Part shown: one piece after another, positions 1,297 through 5,101 of the stretch
Layout: each line of letters begins with the position of its first letter
How positions within the stretch are numbered: position 1 is the stretch's first letter
IMG/VR virus record: IMGVR_UViG_2534681604_000007
Direction: 5' to 3' (one strand)
Source: a virus
Lineage: Duplodnaviria > Heunggongvirae > Uroviricota > Caudoviricetes
Length of the DNA: 5,101 nucleotides
The notes under the pieces: generated by a model
The model's database searches: none
What the model was told of the DNA's origin: nothing
What the model saw: only the letters and a program-made list of their open reading frames with translations
Program-made: the position numbers and the translations under genes

Positions 1297-1322
1297 GAAA
1301 AAACCGCCATCAGGCGGTTTGG
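1297..1322 (-). terminator. Candidate intrinsic terminator between the zinc-ribbon gene and pI/xis; the hairpin is symmetric and could also act on the plus strand
   Basis: Minus strand: AAACCGCC-TGAT-GGCGGTTT followed by TTTCTT (8-bp GC-rich stem, 4-nt loop, U-run). Plus strand: AAAAAACCGCCATCAGGCGGTTTGGTGTTCTTT. Confidence 0.5.
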
Positions 1323-1360: not shown

Positions 1361-1672
1361 TTATTCGATGCGCACTCCTGGTATTTCGCCTTTTGATATT
1401 GCTAAGTCATAAATTTGTGCAGCACTATACCCATCTCGCATCCATGAATCTAAGGCGCGAACAGCCTCGCTACGTTTTTTATTCTCCCTCTCATTTTTGA
1501 TATCAACGAGGACATCAACGCAATTAAGGCAAATGTGGATTTTGTCCTTACATTCGATCATGGCGGCTTTACCATGATTTCCACCACACAGTGAGCATAA
1601 ATCTTCAGGGTCTAGCTGGTATTTCTGTAACGTTAGAGGGTTGAATGTTGAACAGACCATAATCATCTCCAT
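1361..1672 (-). CDS. Hypothetical C4 zinc-ribbon protein (103 aa); sits where lambda carries ea8.5, but homology was not verified
   Basis: Intact 103-codon ORF in operon orientation, TAA at 1363..1361. Cys pairs CSLC ... CLNC plus an extra Cys in IECK suggest a zinc ribbon. Three in-frame ATGs at codons 1, 3 and 5 (MEMIMV) leave the true start ambiguous. Confidence 0.65.
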   Translation of the reverse strand: MEMIMVCSTFNPLTLQKYQLDPEDLCSLCGGNHGKAAMIECKDKIHICLNCVDVLVDIKNERENKKRSEAVRALDSWMRDGYSAAQIYDLAISKGEIPGVRIE

Positions 1673-1731: not shown

Positions 1732-2016
1732 TTATTCATTGCTGATATTCACCTTTATCGCGAACACCTTTACCGGTTTATCGCCAAAGTGCGGATGTGT
1801 GATTGTCTTCACTTCATATCCGTCATACGGAACATCAATTCTGCGACTGGAATCGTCGCGCTTCGGATATCCCTTTGTGATAATCAGGCGGTTATACTTA
1901 CGGTTAACGAGGCGCTTTTTCCAGTAGTCATTACACAGGCGATACTCTTCCGTTTTCTCTCCGCGAATCATGGCATCGAAGTATTCACTTTTCACAGCAA
2001 GTTGCAGGTTAGCCAT
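1732..2016 (-). CDS. ASCH-like (PUA-fold) domain protein, 94 aa from the ATG
   Basis: ORF MANLQLAVKSEYFDAMIRGEKTEEYRLCNDYWKKRL...; the RGEKTEEYR segment fits the ASCH GxKxxExR signature. GGGGGA lies 7 nt upstream of the ATG at 2016..2014; an in-frame GTG at 2019..2017 is a less likely start. The ATG shares one nucleotide with the TGA of the upstream TraR-like gene (TGATG). Confidence 0.7.
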   Translation of the reverse strand: MANLQLAVKSEYFDAMIRGEKTEEYRLCNDYWKKRLVNRKYNRLIITKGYPKRDDSSRRIDVPYDGYEVKTITHPHFGDKPVKVFAIKVNISNE

Positions 2017-2237
2017 CACTTAATCCCCCTTTGTTTGCGGATAAGCTCCAGATCTTGCTGGCAACTTGCACAAGTCCGACAACCCTGAATGGCCAGTCGT
2101 CTTCGTTCATCTATCGAATCGCCACACTCACAACAATGAGTGGCAGATACAGCCTGGTGGTTCAGGCGGCGCATTTTTATTGCTGTGTTGCGTTGTAATT
2201 CTTCTATTTCTGATGCTGAATCAATGATGTCTGCCAT
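2016..2237 (-). CDS. TraR/DksA-family C4 zinc-finger protein (73 aa), likely an RNA polymerase secondary-channel binder; same size as lambda Orf73
   Basis: Translation MADIIDSASEIEELQRNTAIKMRRLNHQAVSATHCCECGDSIDERRRLAIQGCRTCASCQQDLELIRKQRGIK has an N-terminal acidic helix and CxxC...CxxC spacing typical of TraR (F plasmid) and lambda Orf73. ATG at 2237..2235, TGA at 2018..2016. Confidence 0.85.
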   Translation of the reverse strand: MADIIDSASEIEELQRNTAIKMRRLNHQAVSATHCCECGDSIDERRRLAIQGCRTCASCQQDLELIRKQRGIK

Positions 2238-2290
2238 CTTCCATTAATCCCTGAATTGTTGGTTAATACGCTTGAGGGTGAATGCGAACA

Positions 2291-2313
2291 ATAAAAAAGG
2301 AGCCTGTAGCTCC
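2291..2313 (-). terminator. Candidate intrinsic terminator between the 71-aa ORF and the TraR-like gene
   Basis: Minus strand: GGAGC-TACAG-GCTCC followed by TTTTTTATT. Short 5-bp stem but a strong U-tract. Confidence 0.4.
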
Positions 2314-2335
2314 ATGATGATTTTGTTTTTCATGC

Positions 2336-2551
2336 TCACCGTTCCTTAAAGACGCCGTTTAACATGCCGATCGCCAGGCTTAAATGAGTCGGTGTGAATC
2401 CCATCATCGTTACTGTTTCGTGGTGCTTCTTCAGTACGCTACGGCAAATGTCATCGACGTTTTTATCCGGACACTGCTGTCTGGCTTTTTTGATTTCAGA
2501 ATTAGCCTGACGGGCAATGCTGCGAAGGGTGTTTTCCTGCTGAGGTGTCAT
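2336..2551 (-). CDS. Hypothetical protein (71 aa from ATG at 2551)
   Basis: ORF MTPQQENTLRSIARQANSEIKKARQQCPDKNVDDICRSVLKKHHETVTMMGFTPTHLSLAIGMLNGVFKER. Its ATG overlaps the TGA of the 27-codon small ORF (ATGA). The track's longer 104-aa version starts at a TTG. Weak SD (GGGG about 10 nt upstream), so coupling is probably needed. Confidence 0.5.
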   Translation of the reverse strand: MTPQQENTLRSIARQANSEIKKARQQCPDKNVDDICRSVLKKHHETVTMMGFTPTHLSLAIGMLNGVFKER

Positions 2552-2631
2552 TGAACAAGCCCCATGTCGGCAAGCATAAGCACGCAGAATATGAAGCCCG
2601 CTGCCAGAAAAATGCATTCCGTGGTTGTCAT
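2548..2631 (-). CDS. Unlisted 27-codon small ORF encoding a hydrophobic, probably single-pass membrane peptide (MTTTECIFLAAGFIFCVLMLADMGLVQ)
   Basis: Hand translation of the minus strand: GGAGG-CTGC-ATG at 2631..2629, followed by 26 sense codons and TGA at 2550..2548. The ATG overlaps the methyltransferase TGA (ATGA) and its TGA overlaps the ATG of the 71-aa ORF (ATGA). Codons are common E. coli ones (CTG, GCG, GGC, TTC, GCC, GAC). Below the ORF-track length cutoff. Confidence 0.45.
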   Translation of the reverse strand: MTTTECIFLAAGFIFCVLMLADMGLVQ

Positions 2632-3185
2632 GCAGCCTCCCGACGGGCAAGAATCCTTGAGCCGAACGCCATCAACTCGCCACGATCAACGGTCGTAAAG
2701 TGGCAGTGTGTACGGGGGTATGGGTGCCAGATAATGAGCATCGAGCCTTTATTATTTCCACTGACGGGTTTCCCGGTGAGTGGGTTAATAAATGCCAGTC
2801 GTCCTGCCGTGATGAATCTGACCTCACTGGCGGTTTGTATCGCTTCATGAAACCATCCGACAGATGTGTCAGCAGGCAATAACATTACACATCCCACACT
2901 ACTGAATTTGTTTTCAGTGGCTGCCTTTTTCACAAAAGGGGAAATATTGCTGTATGGTGGATTCAACCAGACATAACCAGAGGCATATCCCATTGCTTCA
3001 GGCCATGAAGTGGTTAATGTGTTCTGCTCCTGTGAGATAAAAAGCCGACATAGTCGGTTTTTTTCGTTGGCTGCAGCATCAAGTTGAAAATCGAACTCTG
3101 CATTCAGCGCAGCAAAAATCTCTGGTGGTGTGCGCCAGCTGTCGCGATGTTCGGCAGGAGTATTGCTTCCGGTGAAATCAGTCAT
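2628..3185 (-). CDS. Phage Dam-family (T1-type) DNA N6-adenine methyltransferase, 185 aa
   Basis: Translation contains the catalytic NPPY tetrapeptide (VWLNPPYSN) and the N-terminal WRTPPEIFAALNAEFDFQLDAAAN segment characteristic of the small phage Dam family. GGGGGG lies 4 nt upstream of the ATG at 3185..3183; TGA at 2630..2628. Confidence 0.88.
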   Translation of the reverse strand: MTDFTGSNTPAEHRDSWRTPPEIFAALNAEFDFQLDAAANEKNRLCRLFISQEQNTLTTSWPEAMGYASGYVWLNPPYSNISPFVKKAATENKFSSVGCVMLLPADTSVGWFHEAIQTASEVRFITAGRLAFINPLTGKPVSGNNKGSMLIIWHPYPRTHCHFTTVDRGELMAFGSRILARREAA

Positions 3186-3336
3186 ACAGCCCCCCGTTTA
3201 TTATTTATCTCCTCAGCCAGCCGCTGTGCTTTCAGTGGATTTCTGATAACAGAAAGGCCGGGAAATACCCAGCCTCGCTTTGTAACGGAGTAGACGAAAG
3301 TGATTGCGCCTACCCGGATATTATCGTGAGGATGCG

Positions 3337-4017
3337 TCATCGCCATTGCTCCCCAAATACAAAACCAATTTCAGCCAGTGCCTCGTCCATTTTTTCGATG
3401 AACTCCGGCACCATCTCGTCAAAACTCGCCATGTACTTTTCATTCCGCTCAATCACGACATAATGCAGGCCTTCACGCTTCATGCGCGGGTCATAGTTGG
3501 CAAAGTACCAGGCATCTTTTCGCGTCACCCACATGCTGTACTGCACCTGGGCCATGTAAGCCGACTTTATGGCCTCGAAACCACCGAGCCGGAACTTCAT
3601 GAAATCCCGGGAGGTAAACGGGCATTTCAGTTCAAGGCCGTTGCCGTCACTGCATAAACCATCGGGAGAGCAGGCGGTGCGCATACTTTCGTCGCGATAG
3701 ATGATCGGGGATTCAGTAACATTCACGCCGGAAGTGAACTCAAAGAGGGCTCTGGCGTCGTTCTCGTACTGTTTTCCCCAGGCCAGCGCCTTAGCGTTAA
3801 CTTCCGGAGCCACACCGGTGCAAACCTCGGCAAGCAGGGTGTGGAAGTAGGACATTTTCATGTCAGGCCATTTCTTTCCGGAGCGGGGTTTTGCTATCAC
3901 ATTGTGAACCTCTGAAGCGGTGATGACGCCGAGCCGTAATTTGTGCCACGCATCATCCCCCTGTTCGACAGCTCTCACGTCGATCCCGGTACGCTGCAGG
4001 ATAATGTCCGGTGTCAT
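3337..4017 (-). CDS. exo: Lambda exonuclease (Red-alpha), 226 aa
   Basis: Translation [65 protein letters not shown]...GEQWR matches lambda Exo as I recall it. ATG overlaps the bet stop (ATGA at 4017..4014). Confidence 0.97.
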
Positions 4018-4799
4018 GCTGCCACCTTCTGCTCAGTGGCTTTCTGTTTCAGGAATCCAAGAGCTTTCACTGCTTCGGCCTGTGTCAGTTCTGACGATGC
4101 TCGAATGTCGCGGCGAAATATCTGGGAACAGAGCGGCAATAAGTCGTCATCCCATGTTTTATCCAGGGCAATCAGCAGAGTGTTAATCTCCTGCATGGTT
4201 TCATCGTTAACCGGAGTGATGTCGCGTTCCGGCTGACGTTCTGCAGTGTATGCGGTATTTTCGACAATGCGCTCGGCTTCATCCTTGTCATAGATACCAG
4301 CAAATCCGAAGGCGAGACGGGCACACTGAATCATGGCTTTATGCCGTAACATCCGTTTGGGATGCGACTGCCACGGCCCCGTGATTTCTCTGCCTTCGCG
4401 GGTTTTGAATGGTTCGCGGCGGCATTCATCCATCCACTCGGTAACGCAGATCGGATGATTGCGGTCCTTGCGGTAAATCCGGCATGTGCAGGATTCATTG
4501 TCCTGCTCAAAGTCCATGCCATCAAACTGCTGGTTTTCATTGATGATACGGGACCAGCCATCAACGCCCACCACCGGAACGATGCCGTTCTGCTTGTCAG
4601 GGAAGGCGTAAATTTCTTTCGTCCACGGATTAAGGCCGTACTGGTTGGCGACGATCAGCAATGCGATGAACTGCGCATCGCTGGCATCACCTTTAAATGC
4701 CGTCTGGCGAAGAGTGGTGATCAGTTCCTGTGGGTCGACAGAATCCATGCCGACGCGTTCAGCCAGCTTCCCAGCCAGCGTTGCGAGTGCTGTACTCAT
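4014..4799 (-). CDS. bet: Single-strand annealing protein Bet (Red-beta), 261 aa
   Basis: Translation [85 protein letters not shown]... matches lambda Bet as I recall it. ATG at 4799..4797 follows the gam TAA (4807..4805) by 5 nt. Confidence 0.97.
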
Positions 4800-4804
4800 C
4801 CGTT

Positions 4805-5101
4805 TTATACCTCTGAATCAATATCAACCTGGTGGTGAGCAATGGTTTCAACCATGTACCGGATGTGTTCTGCCATGCGCTCCTGAAACTCAACATCGTC
4901 ATCAAACGCACGGGTAATGGCTTTTTTGCTGGCCCCGTGGCGTTGTAAATGATCGATGCAGAGTGATTCAAACAGGTGCTGGGGCAGACCTTTTTCCATG
5001 TCGTCTGCCAGTTCTGCCTCTTTCTCTTCACGGGCGATCTGCTGGTAGTGACGCGTCCAGCTCTGAGCCTCAAGACGATCCTGAATGTAATAAGCGTTCA
5101 T
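4805..5101 (-). CDS. gam: Gam, RecBCD inhibitor; 5' end truncated by the window edge (visible part is the 98-aa GamS-equivalent portion)
   Basis: Translation [95 protein letters not shown] matches the C-terminal 98 residues of lambda Gam as I recall it. The reading frame stays open to the last base of the window. Confidence 0.92.

What the first reader, a model, noticed from the sequence alone, without database searches (positions are those of the whole stretch)
2336..3185. Translationally coupled three-gene cassette: Dam-family methyltransferase, membrane peptide, 71-aa protein
The three ORFs are chained stop-to-start by ATGA overlaps with no intergenic bases, implying obligatory co-translation at fixed stoichiometry. 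They sit as a block between exo and a terminator, where lambda itself carries small unrelated ORFs (orf60a/orf63/orf61 by my recollection), so this looks like a swapped-in accessory module. A modification enzyme tightly coupled to two small proteins of unknown function could be an anti-restriction, epigenetic-mimicry or exclusion module. The partnership itself is the novel aspect.
Basis: partly seen in the sequence, partly recalled or inferred. Interest (0 to 1): 0.6.

Follow-up and report, generated by a model that had tools for sequence, protein, structure and literature searches.

The report
Dam methylase swapped into lambda's exo-xis operon
This is the early-left "exo-xis" operon of a lambda-like prophage in which one small gene (orf63) has been replaced, exactly codon for codon, by an ordinary phage Dam-type DNA methylase; the two small genes after it are lambda's own backbone genes, so this is not an imported three-gene machine.

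Summary
On the minus strand, dam (3185-2628), a 27-codon hydrophobic ORF (2631-2548) and a 71-codon ORF (2551-2336) are joined by ATGA overlaps, and the first is a phage Dam (PF05869, TIGR01712).

- The overlap chain is not special to the trio. It runs from bet to p31, and again at traR/p95.
- Only the dam ORF body (2632-3182) is foreign relative to lambda. It replaces orf63 precisely, and both ATGA joints are kept.
- p27 and p71 are resident backbone. p71 is the intact form of lambda "orf61".
- In 5,426 complete E. coli genomes, p27-p71 occurs at 4,409 places and dam at only 316.
- p27-p71 haplotypes are not partitioned by the upstream allele, so the trio does not travel as a unit.

Best mechanism: an orphan, probably GATC-specific, adenine methylase expressed early from pL.

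Two results add interest. p27 is under clear purifying selection but is not annotated in RefSeq, and it overlaps the published 93-aa Orf61 start. Across diverged relatives, Orf61-family genes are very often directly preceded by DNA methyltransferases of at least four unrelated families. That fits either a modification-gene cargo slot or a real functional link.

The parts
2628..3185 (-). dam: phage orphan N6-adenine DNA methyltransferase, 185 aa, NPPY at residues 75-78
   Evidence: PF05869 E=8.8e-57. TIGR01712 168 bits against cutoff 97. phrog_111. PADLOC best hit is 'orphan methyltransferase'. The exact protein is in NCBI as 'MULTISPECIES: phage N-6-adenine-methyltransferase [Escherichia]' and E. 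fergusonii CAQ90224.1.
2632..3182 (-). Segment with no homology to lambda: the dam ORF body, which replaces the lambda orf63 ORF body exactly between the two ATGA joints
   Evidence: blastn against lambda: window 2026-2631 matches lambda 30402-31008, and window 3183-5101 matches lambda 31194-33112. Alignments of both joints.
2548..2631 (-). p27: conserved 27-codon hydrophobic ORF (one predicted membrane-spanning stretch). Its start overlaps the dam stop (ATGA). GGGAGG lies 6 nt upstream.
   Evidence: Third-position bias of polymorphisms and an identical peptide in 133 of 140 loci. Diverged homologue in L216, with differences by codon position of 9/1/10 and stops in the other frames. GRAVY 2.4 over residues 6-26. 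The exact peptide is on 981 contigs as 'hypothetical protein'. Not annotated by PGAP in RefSeq.
2336..2551 (-). p71: intact Orf61-family protein (phrog_303), basic, three-helix
   Evidence: phrog_303 E=1.4e-34. 95% nucleotide identity to the lambda orf61 region. AlphaFold2 pLDDT 90.9 with helices at 3-26, 32-49 and 54-64. Family alignment with a conserved MTP start.
2486..2491 (-). A6 run inside p71. Reference lambda has A7 here, which frameshifts the gene and creates the truncated 'orf61'.
   Evidence: Alignment. 138 of 140 loci have A6. Translation of lambda orf61.
3182..3346 (-). orf60a homologue (DUF1317), 54 aa. Overlaps the exo stop by 10 nt and the dam start by ATGA.
   Evidence: PF07026 E=7.4e-35. 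Junction table.
2244..2339 (-). p31: conserved 29-31 codon ORF. Its start (GTG 2339 or ATG 2333) abuts the p71 stop.
   Evidence: ORF list. Homologues at 42-70% identity in diverged loci. A 31-aa lambda peptide in this region is reported from ribosome profiling, as cited in PMC8614690.
2289..2313 (-). Terminator-like hairpin GGAGCUACAGGCUCC plus U6, located inside p31
   Evidence: Scan. Fold dG -8.6 kcal/mol, z -2.9. Conserved in lambda.
3337..4799 (-). exo and bet (Red recombination genes): the upstream context of the same overlap-chained operon
   Evidence: PF09588 YqaJ for exo. 97.6% identity to lambda. The bet/exo junction is ATGA.
2016..2237 (-). TraR/DksA-type zinc-finger gene (orf73 position): the downstream context
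   Evidence: PF01258. phrog_54.

Best explanation
The window is the int-xis...exo-bet-gam arm of a lambda-like prophage. The exact Dam protein is found in Escherichia, including E. fergusonii.

In the 'exo-xis' part of the pL early-left operon, the gene order is exo > orf60a > [variable slot] > p27 > p71 (orf61) > p31 > traR. Lambda and most relatives carry orf63 in the slot. This phage carries a phage-type orphan Dam-family N6-adenine DNA methyltransferase instead. The exchange is exact at the start and stop codons, so both ATGA joints are preserved.

Shown:
- The homology breakpoints.
- The family membership of Dam.
- That p27 and p71 are conserved coding genes of the backbone.
- That the trio does not co-segregate.

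Inferred:
- After infection or induction, N-antiterminated pL transcription runs through gam-bet-exo-orf60a-dam-p27-p71.
- Ribosomes pass from gene to gene at the overlaps. p27 has its own strong Shine-Dalgarno sequence. p71 has a weak one and probably depends on coupling.
- Dam methylates adenine, most likely in GATC as in its T1, HP1 and VT2 relatives. This would fully methylate fast-replicating phage DNA, protecting it from methylation-sensitive restriction and altering Dam-dependent host processes.
- p27 (a membrane micro-protein) and p71 (a basic three-helix protein) act independently of Dam as general early-gene products.
For: - Breakpoints fall at the ORF borders.
- Architecture exo>orf60a>{dam|orf63}>p27>p71>p31>traR. 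Of 80 IMG/VR loci retrieved with p71, 64 carry orf63 and 14 carry dam.
- E. coli complete genomes: p27-p71 at 4,409 places in 3,250 genomes; dam at 316 places; complete trio in 244 genomes.
- 179 phage records carry p27-p71, and only one (PhiR30_1) carries dam.
- No fixed differences between dam-linked and orf63-linked p27-p71 haplotypes, and one haplotype is shared.
- Overlaps occur at 7 of the 9 junctions from bet to p95.
- Dam HMM scores exceed the curated cutoffs, NPPY is present, and no nuclease gene is in the window.
- Dam relatives work in other contexts without p27 or p71. There are 2,074 phage records, including HK97 and Stx phages (nin region, 47% identity), HP1 (40%) and T1-like phages.
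- M.EcoVT2Dam is reported to target GATC (PMC6602927).
- No promoter-like site on the minus strand inside the block.
Against: - Methylation specificity and activity are not tested. The nearest characterised relatives are only 40-47% identical.
- In diverged lineages, Orf61-family genes are very frequently directly downstream of a methyltransferase: 65 or more of 72 loci in the Enterobacter-type lineage, plus several remote subfamilies. A purely independent function of p71 does not predict this unless the slot model is right.
- Every full-length copy of this dam allele in E. coli is next to p27-p71 (244 of 244). These copies are at least 95% identical, so this counts as one lineage.
Confidence: 0.6

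Rival explanations
1. There is a functional partnership: Orf61-family proteins (p71) work with the upstream DNA methyltransferase. p71 might be an accessory, timing or specificity factor, or a reader of the new methylation state. The tight coupling would then exist to co-express the two. p27 would be an optional third component.
For: - In the Enterobacter-type lineage (p71b, 30% identical to p71), 72 of 77 loci have an upstream ORF overlapping the p71b start by ATGA. At least 65 of these are methyltransferases from unrelated families: MT-A70 18, Dam 17, C5-Dam fusions 17, a DpdA-like-Dam fusion 1, Dcm-type 10, N6_N4 2.
- Remote subfamilies show the same: P0243 (MT-A70, in a nin-like rather than exo-xis context), P0245 (MT-A70), P0248 (Dam), P0254 (MT-A70), P0241 (phrog_67 methyltransferase), P0262 (MT-A70 in 2 of 3 places).
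- The methyltransferase is always upstream, never downstream.
- L216 has MT-A70 > p27-like > p71b.
Against: - About 93% of p27-p71 copies in E. coli have orf63, not a methyltransferase, upstream.
- Lambda, 434 and the Stx phages show orf61 phenotypes without an adjacent methylase (PMC6213356).
- Six remote subfamilies have exo, HTH, TraR-like, endonuclease-like or unknown genes upstream.
- Family relatives of this Dam occur in HK97, T1-like phages and HP1 with no p71 detected next to them.
- The unrelated methyltransferases share a common 3' tail, ...(R/T)EAA plus GGAGGCnGCATGAC. This fits repeated recombination into one conserved joint, that is, a cargo slot.
- The samples are the best 80 hits per scan and are phylogenetically non-independent.
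Confidence: 0.22
2. p27 is not a gene. The true product is the 93-aa Orf61 used in the literature, starting at the upstream ATG (window 2617). The 84-nt stretch would then be just the 5' part of that ORF, or a coupling spacer.
For: - The p71 frame is open upstream to 2650 in this window.
- 93-aa forms are annotated in many GenBank records and were modelled for Phi24B.
- phrog_303 aligns p71 to profile positions 23-93.
Against: - Common polymorphisms are all synonymous in the p27 frame and non-synonymous in the extension frame. Some alleles put a stop in the extension frame just upstream of its ATG.
- Diverged p27 (L216) keeps the peptide with conservative changes, while both other frames carry stops.
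- All diverged Orf61-family members start at MTP/M.. with no extension.
- An A-to-G variant changes the p71 ATG to GTG while remaining synonymous in p27.
- The published AlphaFold and RoseTTAFold models disagree on residues 1-23 (PMC8614690).
Confidence: 0.05
3. The trio is an anti-phage exclusion or defence module, or part of a restriction-modification system.
For: A methyltransferase with adjacent unknown small proteins. PADLOC type II methyltransferase models give weak hits.
Against: - The best PADLOC hit is 'orphan methyltransferase'.
- p27 and p71 give no defence-family hit.
- No nuclease ORF anywhere in the window.
- The block lies in the lytic early operon, not in a lysogen-expressed moron context, and no minus-strand promoter-like site is present.
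Confidence: 0.05

Closest known systems
Phage orphan Dam family (PF05869 / TIGR01712): the nin-region Dam of HK97 and Stx phages (M.EcoVT2Dam type), Haemophilus HP1 Dam, and T1-like phage Dam
   Same: Same family by curated HMM cutoffs, about 170-185 aa, NPPY catalytic motif, no partner nuclease. M.EcoVT2Dam is reported to methylate GATC (PMC6602927).
   Different: Only 40-47% identical. It sits in the exo-xis arm of the pL operon rather than the nin region. Specificity has not been measured.
Lambda exo-xis block orf60a-orf63-orf61 (-orf73-ea22), studied in lambda and Phi24B
   Same: Same backbone at 95-98% nucleotide identity, same gene order and same overlapping joints. The block is transcribed early from pL. 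orf60a, orf63 and orf61 are reported to be mildly pro-lytic (PMC8614690, PMC6213356).
   Different: orf63 is replaced by dam. orf61 is intact here (71 aa), whereas reference lambda carries a +1 frameshift. p27 is not part of the published gene list.
Escherichia phage PhiR30_1 (PV340558) and 244 complete E. coli genomes
   Same: Identical arrangement exo>orf60a>dam>p27>p71 at 97.8-98.7% identity.
   Different: None of substance. In those records p27 is left unannotated and p71 is called 'hypothetical' or 'orf61'.
Small proteins that modulate DNA modification: Mu Com/Mom, lambda Ral, Rac Lar (recalled from memory, offered as an analogy only)
   Same: A small phage protein genetically coupled to, or acting on, a DNA-modifying enzyme. 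This is the kind of role p71 would have under the partnership rival.
   Different: No sequence or fold similarity was found. Com is upstream of mom and is a zinc finger. Ral and Lar act on host type I enzymes. Nothing here was tested.

Membership tests
Phage N6-adenine DNA methyltransferase (PF05869 Dam / TIGR01712) | Full-length profile match above the curated cutoff | tested here: met
   PF05869 at 191.9 bits against 28.1, covering profile positions 1-168 of 169. TIGR01712 at 168 bits against 97.05.
Phage N6-adenine DNA methyltransferase (PF05869 Dam / TIGR01712) | Catalytic (D/N)PPY motif | tested here: met
   NPPY at residues 75-78.
Phage N6-adenine DNA methyltransferase (PF05869 Dam / TIGR01712) | m6A formation at GATC | not testable with these tools
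   Inferred only from relatives at 40-47% identity and from PMC6602927 for M.EcoVT2Dam.
Phage N6-adenine DNA methyltransferase (PF05869 Dam / TIGR01712) | Orphan status: no cognate restriction endonuclease adjacent | tested here: met
   All window ORFs were assigned or scanned and none is a nuclease other than exo. The PADLOC best hit is oMTase.
Lambda Orf61 family (phrog_303) | Sequence homology and synteny: exo > orf60a > X > orf61 > p31 > TraR-like | tested here: met
   phrog_303 E=1.4e-34. 95% nucleotide identity to lambda. Architecture counts.
Lambda Orf61 family (phrog_303) | 93-aa product with N-terminal extension, as modelled in the literature | tested here: not met
   The extension frame accumulates non-synonymous changes and stops. 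Diverged members lack the extension.
ZapA cell-division protein (the PGAP name for p71) | Match to ZapA profiles or to the ZapA fold | tested here: not met
Homeodomain-like DNA binder (proposed for Phi24B Orf61 in PMC8614690) | Three-helix fold that superimposes on homeodomains | tested here: inconclusive
Translationally coupled operon | Stop and start codons overlap | tested here: met
   ATGA at orf60a/dam, dam/p27 and p27/p71. GTGA at p71/p31. ATGA at bet/exo.
Translationally coupled operon | Downstream translation depends on upstream translation | not testable with these tools
   Indirect only: GGGAGG lies before p27, and only a weak GGGG lies before p71.
Self-contained mobile three-gene cassette | The three genes co-occur and co-inherit across relatives | tested here: not met
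   4,409 p27-p71 places against 316 dam places. Haplotypes are not partitioned by the upstream allele. Diverged dam genes are followed by p71-like, p31-like, Dcm, DpdA-like or other genes.
Small single-pass membrane protein (p27) | A hydrophobic stretch of about 20 residues, conserved as protein | tested here: met
   GRAVY 2.4 over residues 6-26. Second codon positions are nearly invariant. Replacements in L216 are conservative. Membrane insertion itself was not tested.
Restriction-modification or anti-phage defence system | An effector nuclease or a known defence component next to the methyltransferase | tested here: not met
   PADLOC gives no hits for p27, p71 or the neighbouring genes.

The most novel reading that the evidence does not exclude
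Orf61-family proteins (p71) are dedicated partners of phage orphan DNA-modification enzymes. On this reading, the position directly upstream of orf61 is a translationally coupled cargo slot. Enterobacterial lambdoid prophages would exchange Dam, MT-A70, C5, N6_N4 and DpdA-like modification genes there. p71, sometimes with the p27 membrane micro-protein, would modulate or exploit the new modification. Lambda's orf63 allele, and its frameshifted orf61, would then be the derived, degenerate state.
Probability: 0.2. Interest if true: 0.55.

Novelty: new member of a known kind. Interest (0 to 1): 0.3.

Why it matters
As submitted, the finding is mostly ordinary. It is a known type of orphan phage methylase sitting in a mosaic slot of a well-known operon, and it is already annotated in hundreds of genomes.

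It matters modestly in three ways.

1. It corrects the gene map of the exo-xis region that is used in current lambda and Stx-phage work. "orf61" of reference lambda is a frameshift artefact. The 93-aa Orf61 start is probably wrong. A conserved 27-aa membrane micro-protein lies under it. Published orf61 deletions may therefore also have removed p27.

2. It shows that the position upstream of orf61 is a hot spot for DNA-modification genes in enterobacterial prophages. This bears on how temperate phages, including Stx phages, escape restriction.

3. It gives a cheap, testable hypothesis for the unknown function of Orf61.

Tried and rejected
- The lambda ribosome-profiling paper (PMC3718152) is not held. 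Whether p27 is translated could not be checked directly.
- The PDB sequence search found nothing for Dam. For p71 it gave only spurious ankyrin and G-beta hits.
- The 'ZapA' name given by PGAP was rejected.
- The apparently diverse hits of the first p71 protein search were frameshift variants and chimeras, not true divergence. Real diversity had to be reached through the Enterobacter-type homologue and the representative library.
- Rfam and tRNA scans of the window found nothing.
- A viral-contig scan with P0246 found nothing.
- No paper combining 'exo-xis', 'lambdoid' and 'adenine methyltransferase' was found.
- I considered that dam brought its own p27-p71 with it. This was rejected on haplotype sharing.
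- I considered an internal promoter for p27-p71. None was found on the minus strand.
- My first neighbour clustering picked wrong-frame ORFs. It was redone with the ATGA-anchored frame.
Full report
**What is in the window**

All genes of interest are on the minus strand.

| Gene | Coordinates | Assignment |
|---|---|---|
| int | 1-1074 | integrase |
| xis | 1052-1270 | excisionase |
| two unknown ORFs | 1361-1672, 1732-2019 | phrog_3680, phrog_625 |
| traR-like | 2016-2237 | TraR/DksA zinc-finger gene |
| p31 | 2244-2339 | 31-codon ORF |
| p71 | 2336-2551 | Orf61 family |
| p27 | 2548-2631 | hydrophobic micro-ORF |
| dam | 2628-3185 | PF05869 Dam |
| orf60a | 3182-3346 | DUF1317 |
| exo | 3337-4017 | YqaJ-type exonuclease |
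| bet | 4014-4799 | Red recombination |
| gam | 4805-5101+ | runs off the window |

This is the early-left (pL) arm of a lambda-like prophage. The exact Dam protein is recorded in NCBI as a MULTISPECIES Escherichia protein and in E. fergusonii.

**Checking the observation**

The three ORFs and their ATGA overlaps are exactly as described.
- Dam matches PF05869 at E=8.8e-57 and the equivalog TIGR01712 at 168 bits against a cutoff of 97.
- It has NPPY at residues 75-78.
- Its best PADLOC hit is an 'orphan methyltransferase' model.

Stop/start overlap is not peculiar to the trio.
- 4-nt overlaps occur at bet/exo, orf60a/dam, dam/p27, p27/p71, p71/p31 and traR/p95.
- exo/orf60a overlaps by 10 nt.

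The 'terminator' exists: GGAGCUACAGGCUCC plus U6 at 2313-2299, dG -8.6 kcal/mol, z -2.9. It lies inside the next small ORF, p31, and is conserved in lambda.

**What was swapped**

blastn against lambda gives two collinear blocks.
- Window 2026-2631 matches lambda 30402-31008 at 95.2%.
- Window 3183-5101 matches lambda 31194-33112 at 97.6%.

The 551 bases between them (2632-3182) are the body of dam. In lambda, the corresponding 185 bases are the body of orf63. Alignments of both joints show that homology ends exactly at the ATG and resumes exactly at the ATGA. This is therefore a one-gene, codon-exact replacement of orf63 by dam.
- orf60a is retained. Its last codons differ, giving 54 aa against 60 aa.
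- p27, p71, p31 and the TraR-like gene are lambda backbone.

**p71 is the intact orf61**

Reference lambda has A7 where this window, and 138 of 140 related loci, have A6 (window 2486-2491).

Translating the annotated lambda orf61 gives MRETRYDNHGMHFSGSGLHILCAYACRHGTCS + MTPQQENALRSIARQANSEIKK + SQTAVSG*. It has three parts.
- 32 residues read in a wrong frame across the end of orf63 and across p27.
- 22 genuine p71 residues.
- A frameshifted tail.

The literature already notes that lambda Orf61 'appears truncated'. It models Phi24B Orf61 as 93 aa, with residues 1-23 behaving inconsistently between predictors (PMC8614690).

**p27 is a real coding gene**

- Across 140 loci, the 84-nt stretch has 17 variable sites, of which 11 are third positions in the p27 frame. 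All 8 sites seen in at least 3 loci are third positions. P((1/3)^8) is about 1.5e-4, and the binomial P for 11 of 17 is 0.008.
- The peptide is identical in 133 of 140 loci.
- The same changes are non-synonymous in the frame of the 93-aa extension.
- One variant turns the p71 ATG into GTG while staying synonymous in p27.
- A diverged homologue (L216 2421-2504, MTTTECLLLALGFVICVLMLANMGLLQ) differs at 9, 1 and 10 first, second and third positions. All of its replacements are conservative. Both other frames carry stops.
- All diverged Orf61-family members begin at the MTP-type start with no extension.
- p27 is hydrophobic, with GRAVY 2.4 over residues 6-26.
- It appears as 'hypothetical protein' on 981 contigs.
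- It is not annotated in RefSeq: a 76-nt gap separates the p71 and dam annotations.

The published orf61 deletions, which were made on the longer annotated ORFs, therefore probably also removed part of p27. This last point is my inference.

**Does the trio travel together?**

No, within the E. coli/lambda lineage.
- Phage records: 179 carry p27-p71, and only PhiR30_1 also carries dam.
- IMG/VR: of the 80 best p71 loci, 64 have orf63 upstream, 14 have dam and 2 are cut by the contig end.
- Complete E. coli genomes: p27-p71 in 3,250 of 5,426 genomes (4,409 places); dam in 312 genomes (316 places); the full trio in 244 genomes.
- Among 97 non-redundant contexts there are 54 p27-p71 haplotypes. 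No difference is fixed between dam-linked and orf63-linked copies, and one haplotype is shared. Dam-linked haplotypes are as close to orf63-linked haplotypes as to each other.

Recombination at the joint has therefore decoupled dam from what follows it.

**The Dam family**

tblastn finds relatives in 2,074 phage records.
- HK97 and many Stx phages, in the nin region next to ninE: about 47% identity.
- T1-like phages: 43-46%.
- Haemophilus HP1 and HP2: about 40%.

No p27 or p71 accompanies these relatives. M.EcoVT2Dam of an Stx phage is reported to target GATC (PMC6602927). GATC specificity for the window enzyme is an inference from these relatives.

Dam genes that are 65-86% identical occur in Enterobacter, Citrobacter, Klebsiella, Leclercia and other prophages. 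They are followed, again by an ATGA overlap, by one of the following.
- A p71 homologue (about 30% identical) with no p27.
- A p31-like ORF.
- A Dcm-type C5 methylase.
- A DpdA-like protein (phrog_887, 'queuine tRNA-ribosyltransferase').
- Other genes.

Taking that p71 homologue (p71b) as the query, 72 of 77 loci have an upstream ORF overlapping its start by ATGA:

| Upstream ORF | Loci |
|---|---|
| MT-A70 (PF05063) | 18 |
| Dam | 17, plus 1 remnant |
| Single ORFs with both a C5-methylase and a Dam domain (637 or 515 aa) | 17 |
| DpdA-like-Dam ORF | 1 |
| Dcm-type | 10 |
| N6_N4 (PF01555) | 2 |
| Unassigned 256-aa type | 3 |
| HNH | 2 |
| p27 | 1 |

These unrelated genes share the same last codons, ...(R/T)EAA, and the same joint, GGAGGCnGCATGAC.

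Remote Orf61-family subfamilies (32-60% identity) give a mixed picture.
- A methyltransferase is directly upstream for P0243 (MT-A70, in a nin-like context with replication genes, a LexA-like gene and RusA), P0245, P0248 (Dam), P0254 and P0241.
- A methyltransferase is nearby, separated by one or two micro-ORFs, for P0262.
- For P0246, P0250, P0252, P0253, P0256 and P0259 the upstream gene is exo, HTH, endonuclease-like, TraR-like or unknown.

Caveats: each scan returns only its best 80 hits, the loci are related, and I did not correct for phylogeny.

**Interpretation**

The simplest reading is a conserved cargo slot at the head of the conserved p71-p31-traR block. New modification genes enter by recombination within the last few codons of the previous occupant, which preserves the ribosome-binding site and the overlap that feed p71. 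Lambda-type phages carry orf63 plus p27 there. This window carries dam plus p27.

A real functional link between Orf61-family proteins and DNA methyltransferases is not excluded. I rate it at about 0.2.

**p71 structure**

**Mechanism**

The steps below are inferred unless a call number is given.
1. pL transcription, antiterminated by N, reads through the block. No minus-strand promoter-like site lies inside it.
2. dam is translated by ribosomes arriving from orf60a.
3. p27 has its own GGGAGG sequence 6 nt upstream of its start.
4. p71 has only a weak purine run before it and probably relies on reinitiation after p27.
5. Dam then methylates replicating phage DNA and host DNA.

The overlaps do not imply fixed stoichiometry.

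**Verdict**

The object itself is an ordinary mosaic variant carrying a known type of orphan methylase, already present and annotated in many genomes.

The useful by-products are:
- a corrected gene map of the exo-xis region (p27, the true Orf61 start, and the lambda frameshift);
- the modification-gene slot upstream of orf61.

Noticed in passing
window 2486-2491; L001 (lambda) 2764-2949: Reference lambda and its laboratory derivatives carry A7 where 138 of 140 relatives carry A6. The annotated lambda orf61 is therefore a chimera of wrong-frame sequence, 22 true residues and a frameshifted tail. The intact gene is 71 codons.
   Followed up: yes
window 2548-2631: p27, a 27-aa hydrophobic ORF under purifying selection, is present in lambda itself. 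It is left unannotated by PGAP and overlaps the 5' part of the published 93-aa Orf61. Published orf61 deletions may therefore also affect it.
   Followed up: yes
window 2244-2339: p31 is a 29-31 codon ORF whose coding sequence contains the terminator-like hairpin. It is conserved as a peptide (...RPFLLLAFTFNRINQQFRE) at 42-70% identity in Enterobacter-type prophages. In some loci it follows dam directly. It probably corresponds to the 31-aa lambda peptide mentioned in PMC8614690.
   Followed up: partly
L186-L265, e.g. L202 1668-2327, L210 591-2504, L212 1374-2504, L231 1452-2504: The gene directly upstream of the Orf61-family gene in Enterobacter-type prophages is almost always a DNA methyltransferase of one of several unrelated families. 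All share the same ...EAA tail and the same GGAGGCnGCATGAC joint. This looks like a hot spot for modification-gene exchange.
   Followed up: partly
L210 591-2504 (637 aa); L224 957-2504 (515 aa); L246 1122-2504 (460 aa): Single ORFs combine a C5-cytosine methylase domain, or a DpdA-like N-terminal part, with a complete Dam domain. These may be natural fusions of two DNA-modification activities. Assembly or frameshift artefacts were not excluded.
   Followed up: partly
L143 3055-3807 and other loci: A 250-aa protein (phrog_887, 'queuine tRNA-ribosyltransferase', DpdA-like) occupies the same slot next to dam. This suggests 7-deazaguanine-type DNA modification in some of these prophages.
   Followed up: partly
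L269 1846-2719: An MT-A70 methylase overlaps a p71-family gene by 14 nt. The context is nin-like (replication genes upstream; a LexA-like gene and RusA downstream), not exo-xis. This is the one case that argues for more than positional linkage.
   Followed up: partly
window 2336-2551 (database names): PGAP names many 71-aa copies 'cell division protein ZapA'. No profile or fold evidence supports this name.
   Followed up: yes
window 1361-1672: A 103-aa ORF (phrog_3680) gives weak matches to the ClpX N-terminal zinc-finger region. A Pfam zf-C4_ClpX protein sits at a similar position in L283.
   Followed up: no
window 1301-1320 and 3254-3276: A perfect bidirectional hairpin with T-runs on both strands lies between xis and the 103-aa ORF. 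A 9-bp terminator-like hairpin lies inside orf60a on the minus strand.
   Followed up: no
L163 3243-3404 compared with window 3182-3346: The orf60a stop, and so the length of its overlap with dam (8 nt against 4 nt), differs between otherwise 98.7%-identical copies. The orf60a C-terminus is therefore variable at the joint.
   Followed up: no
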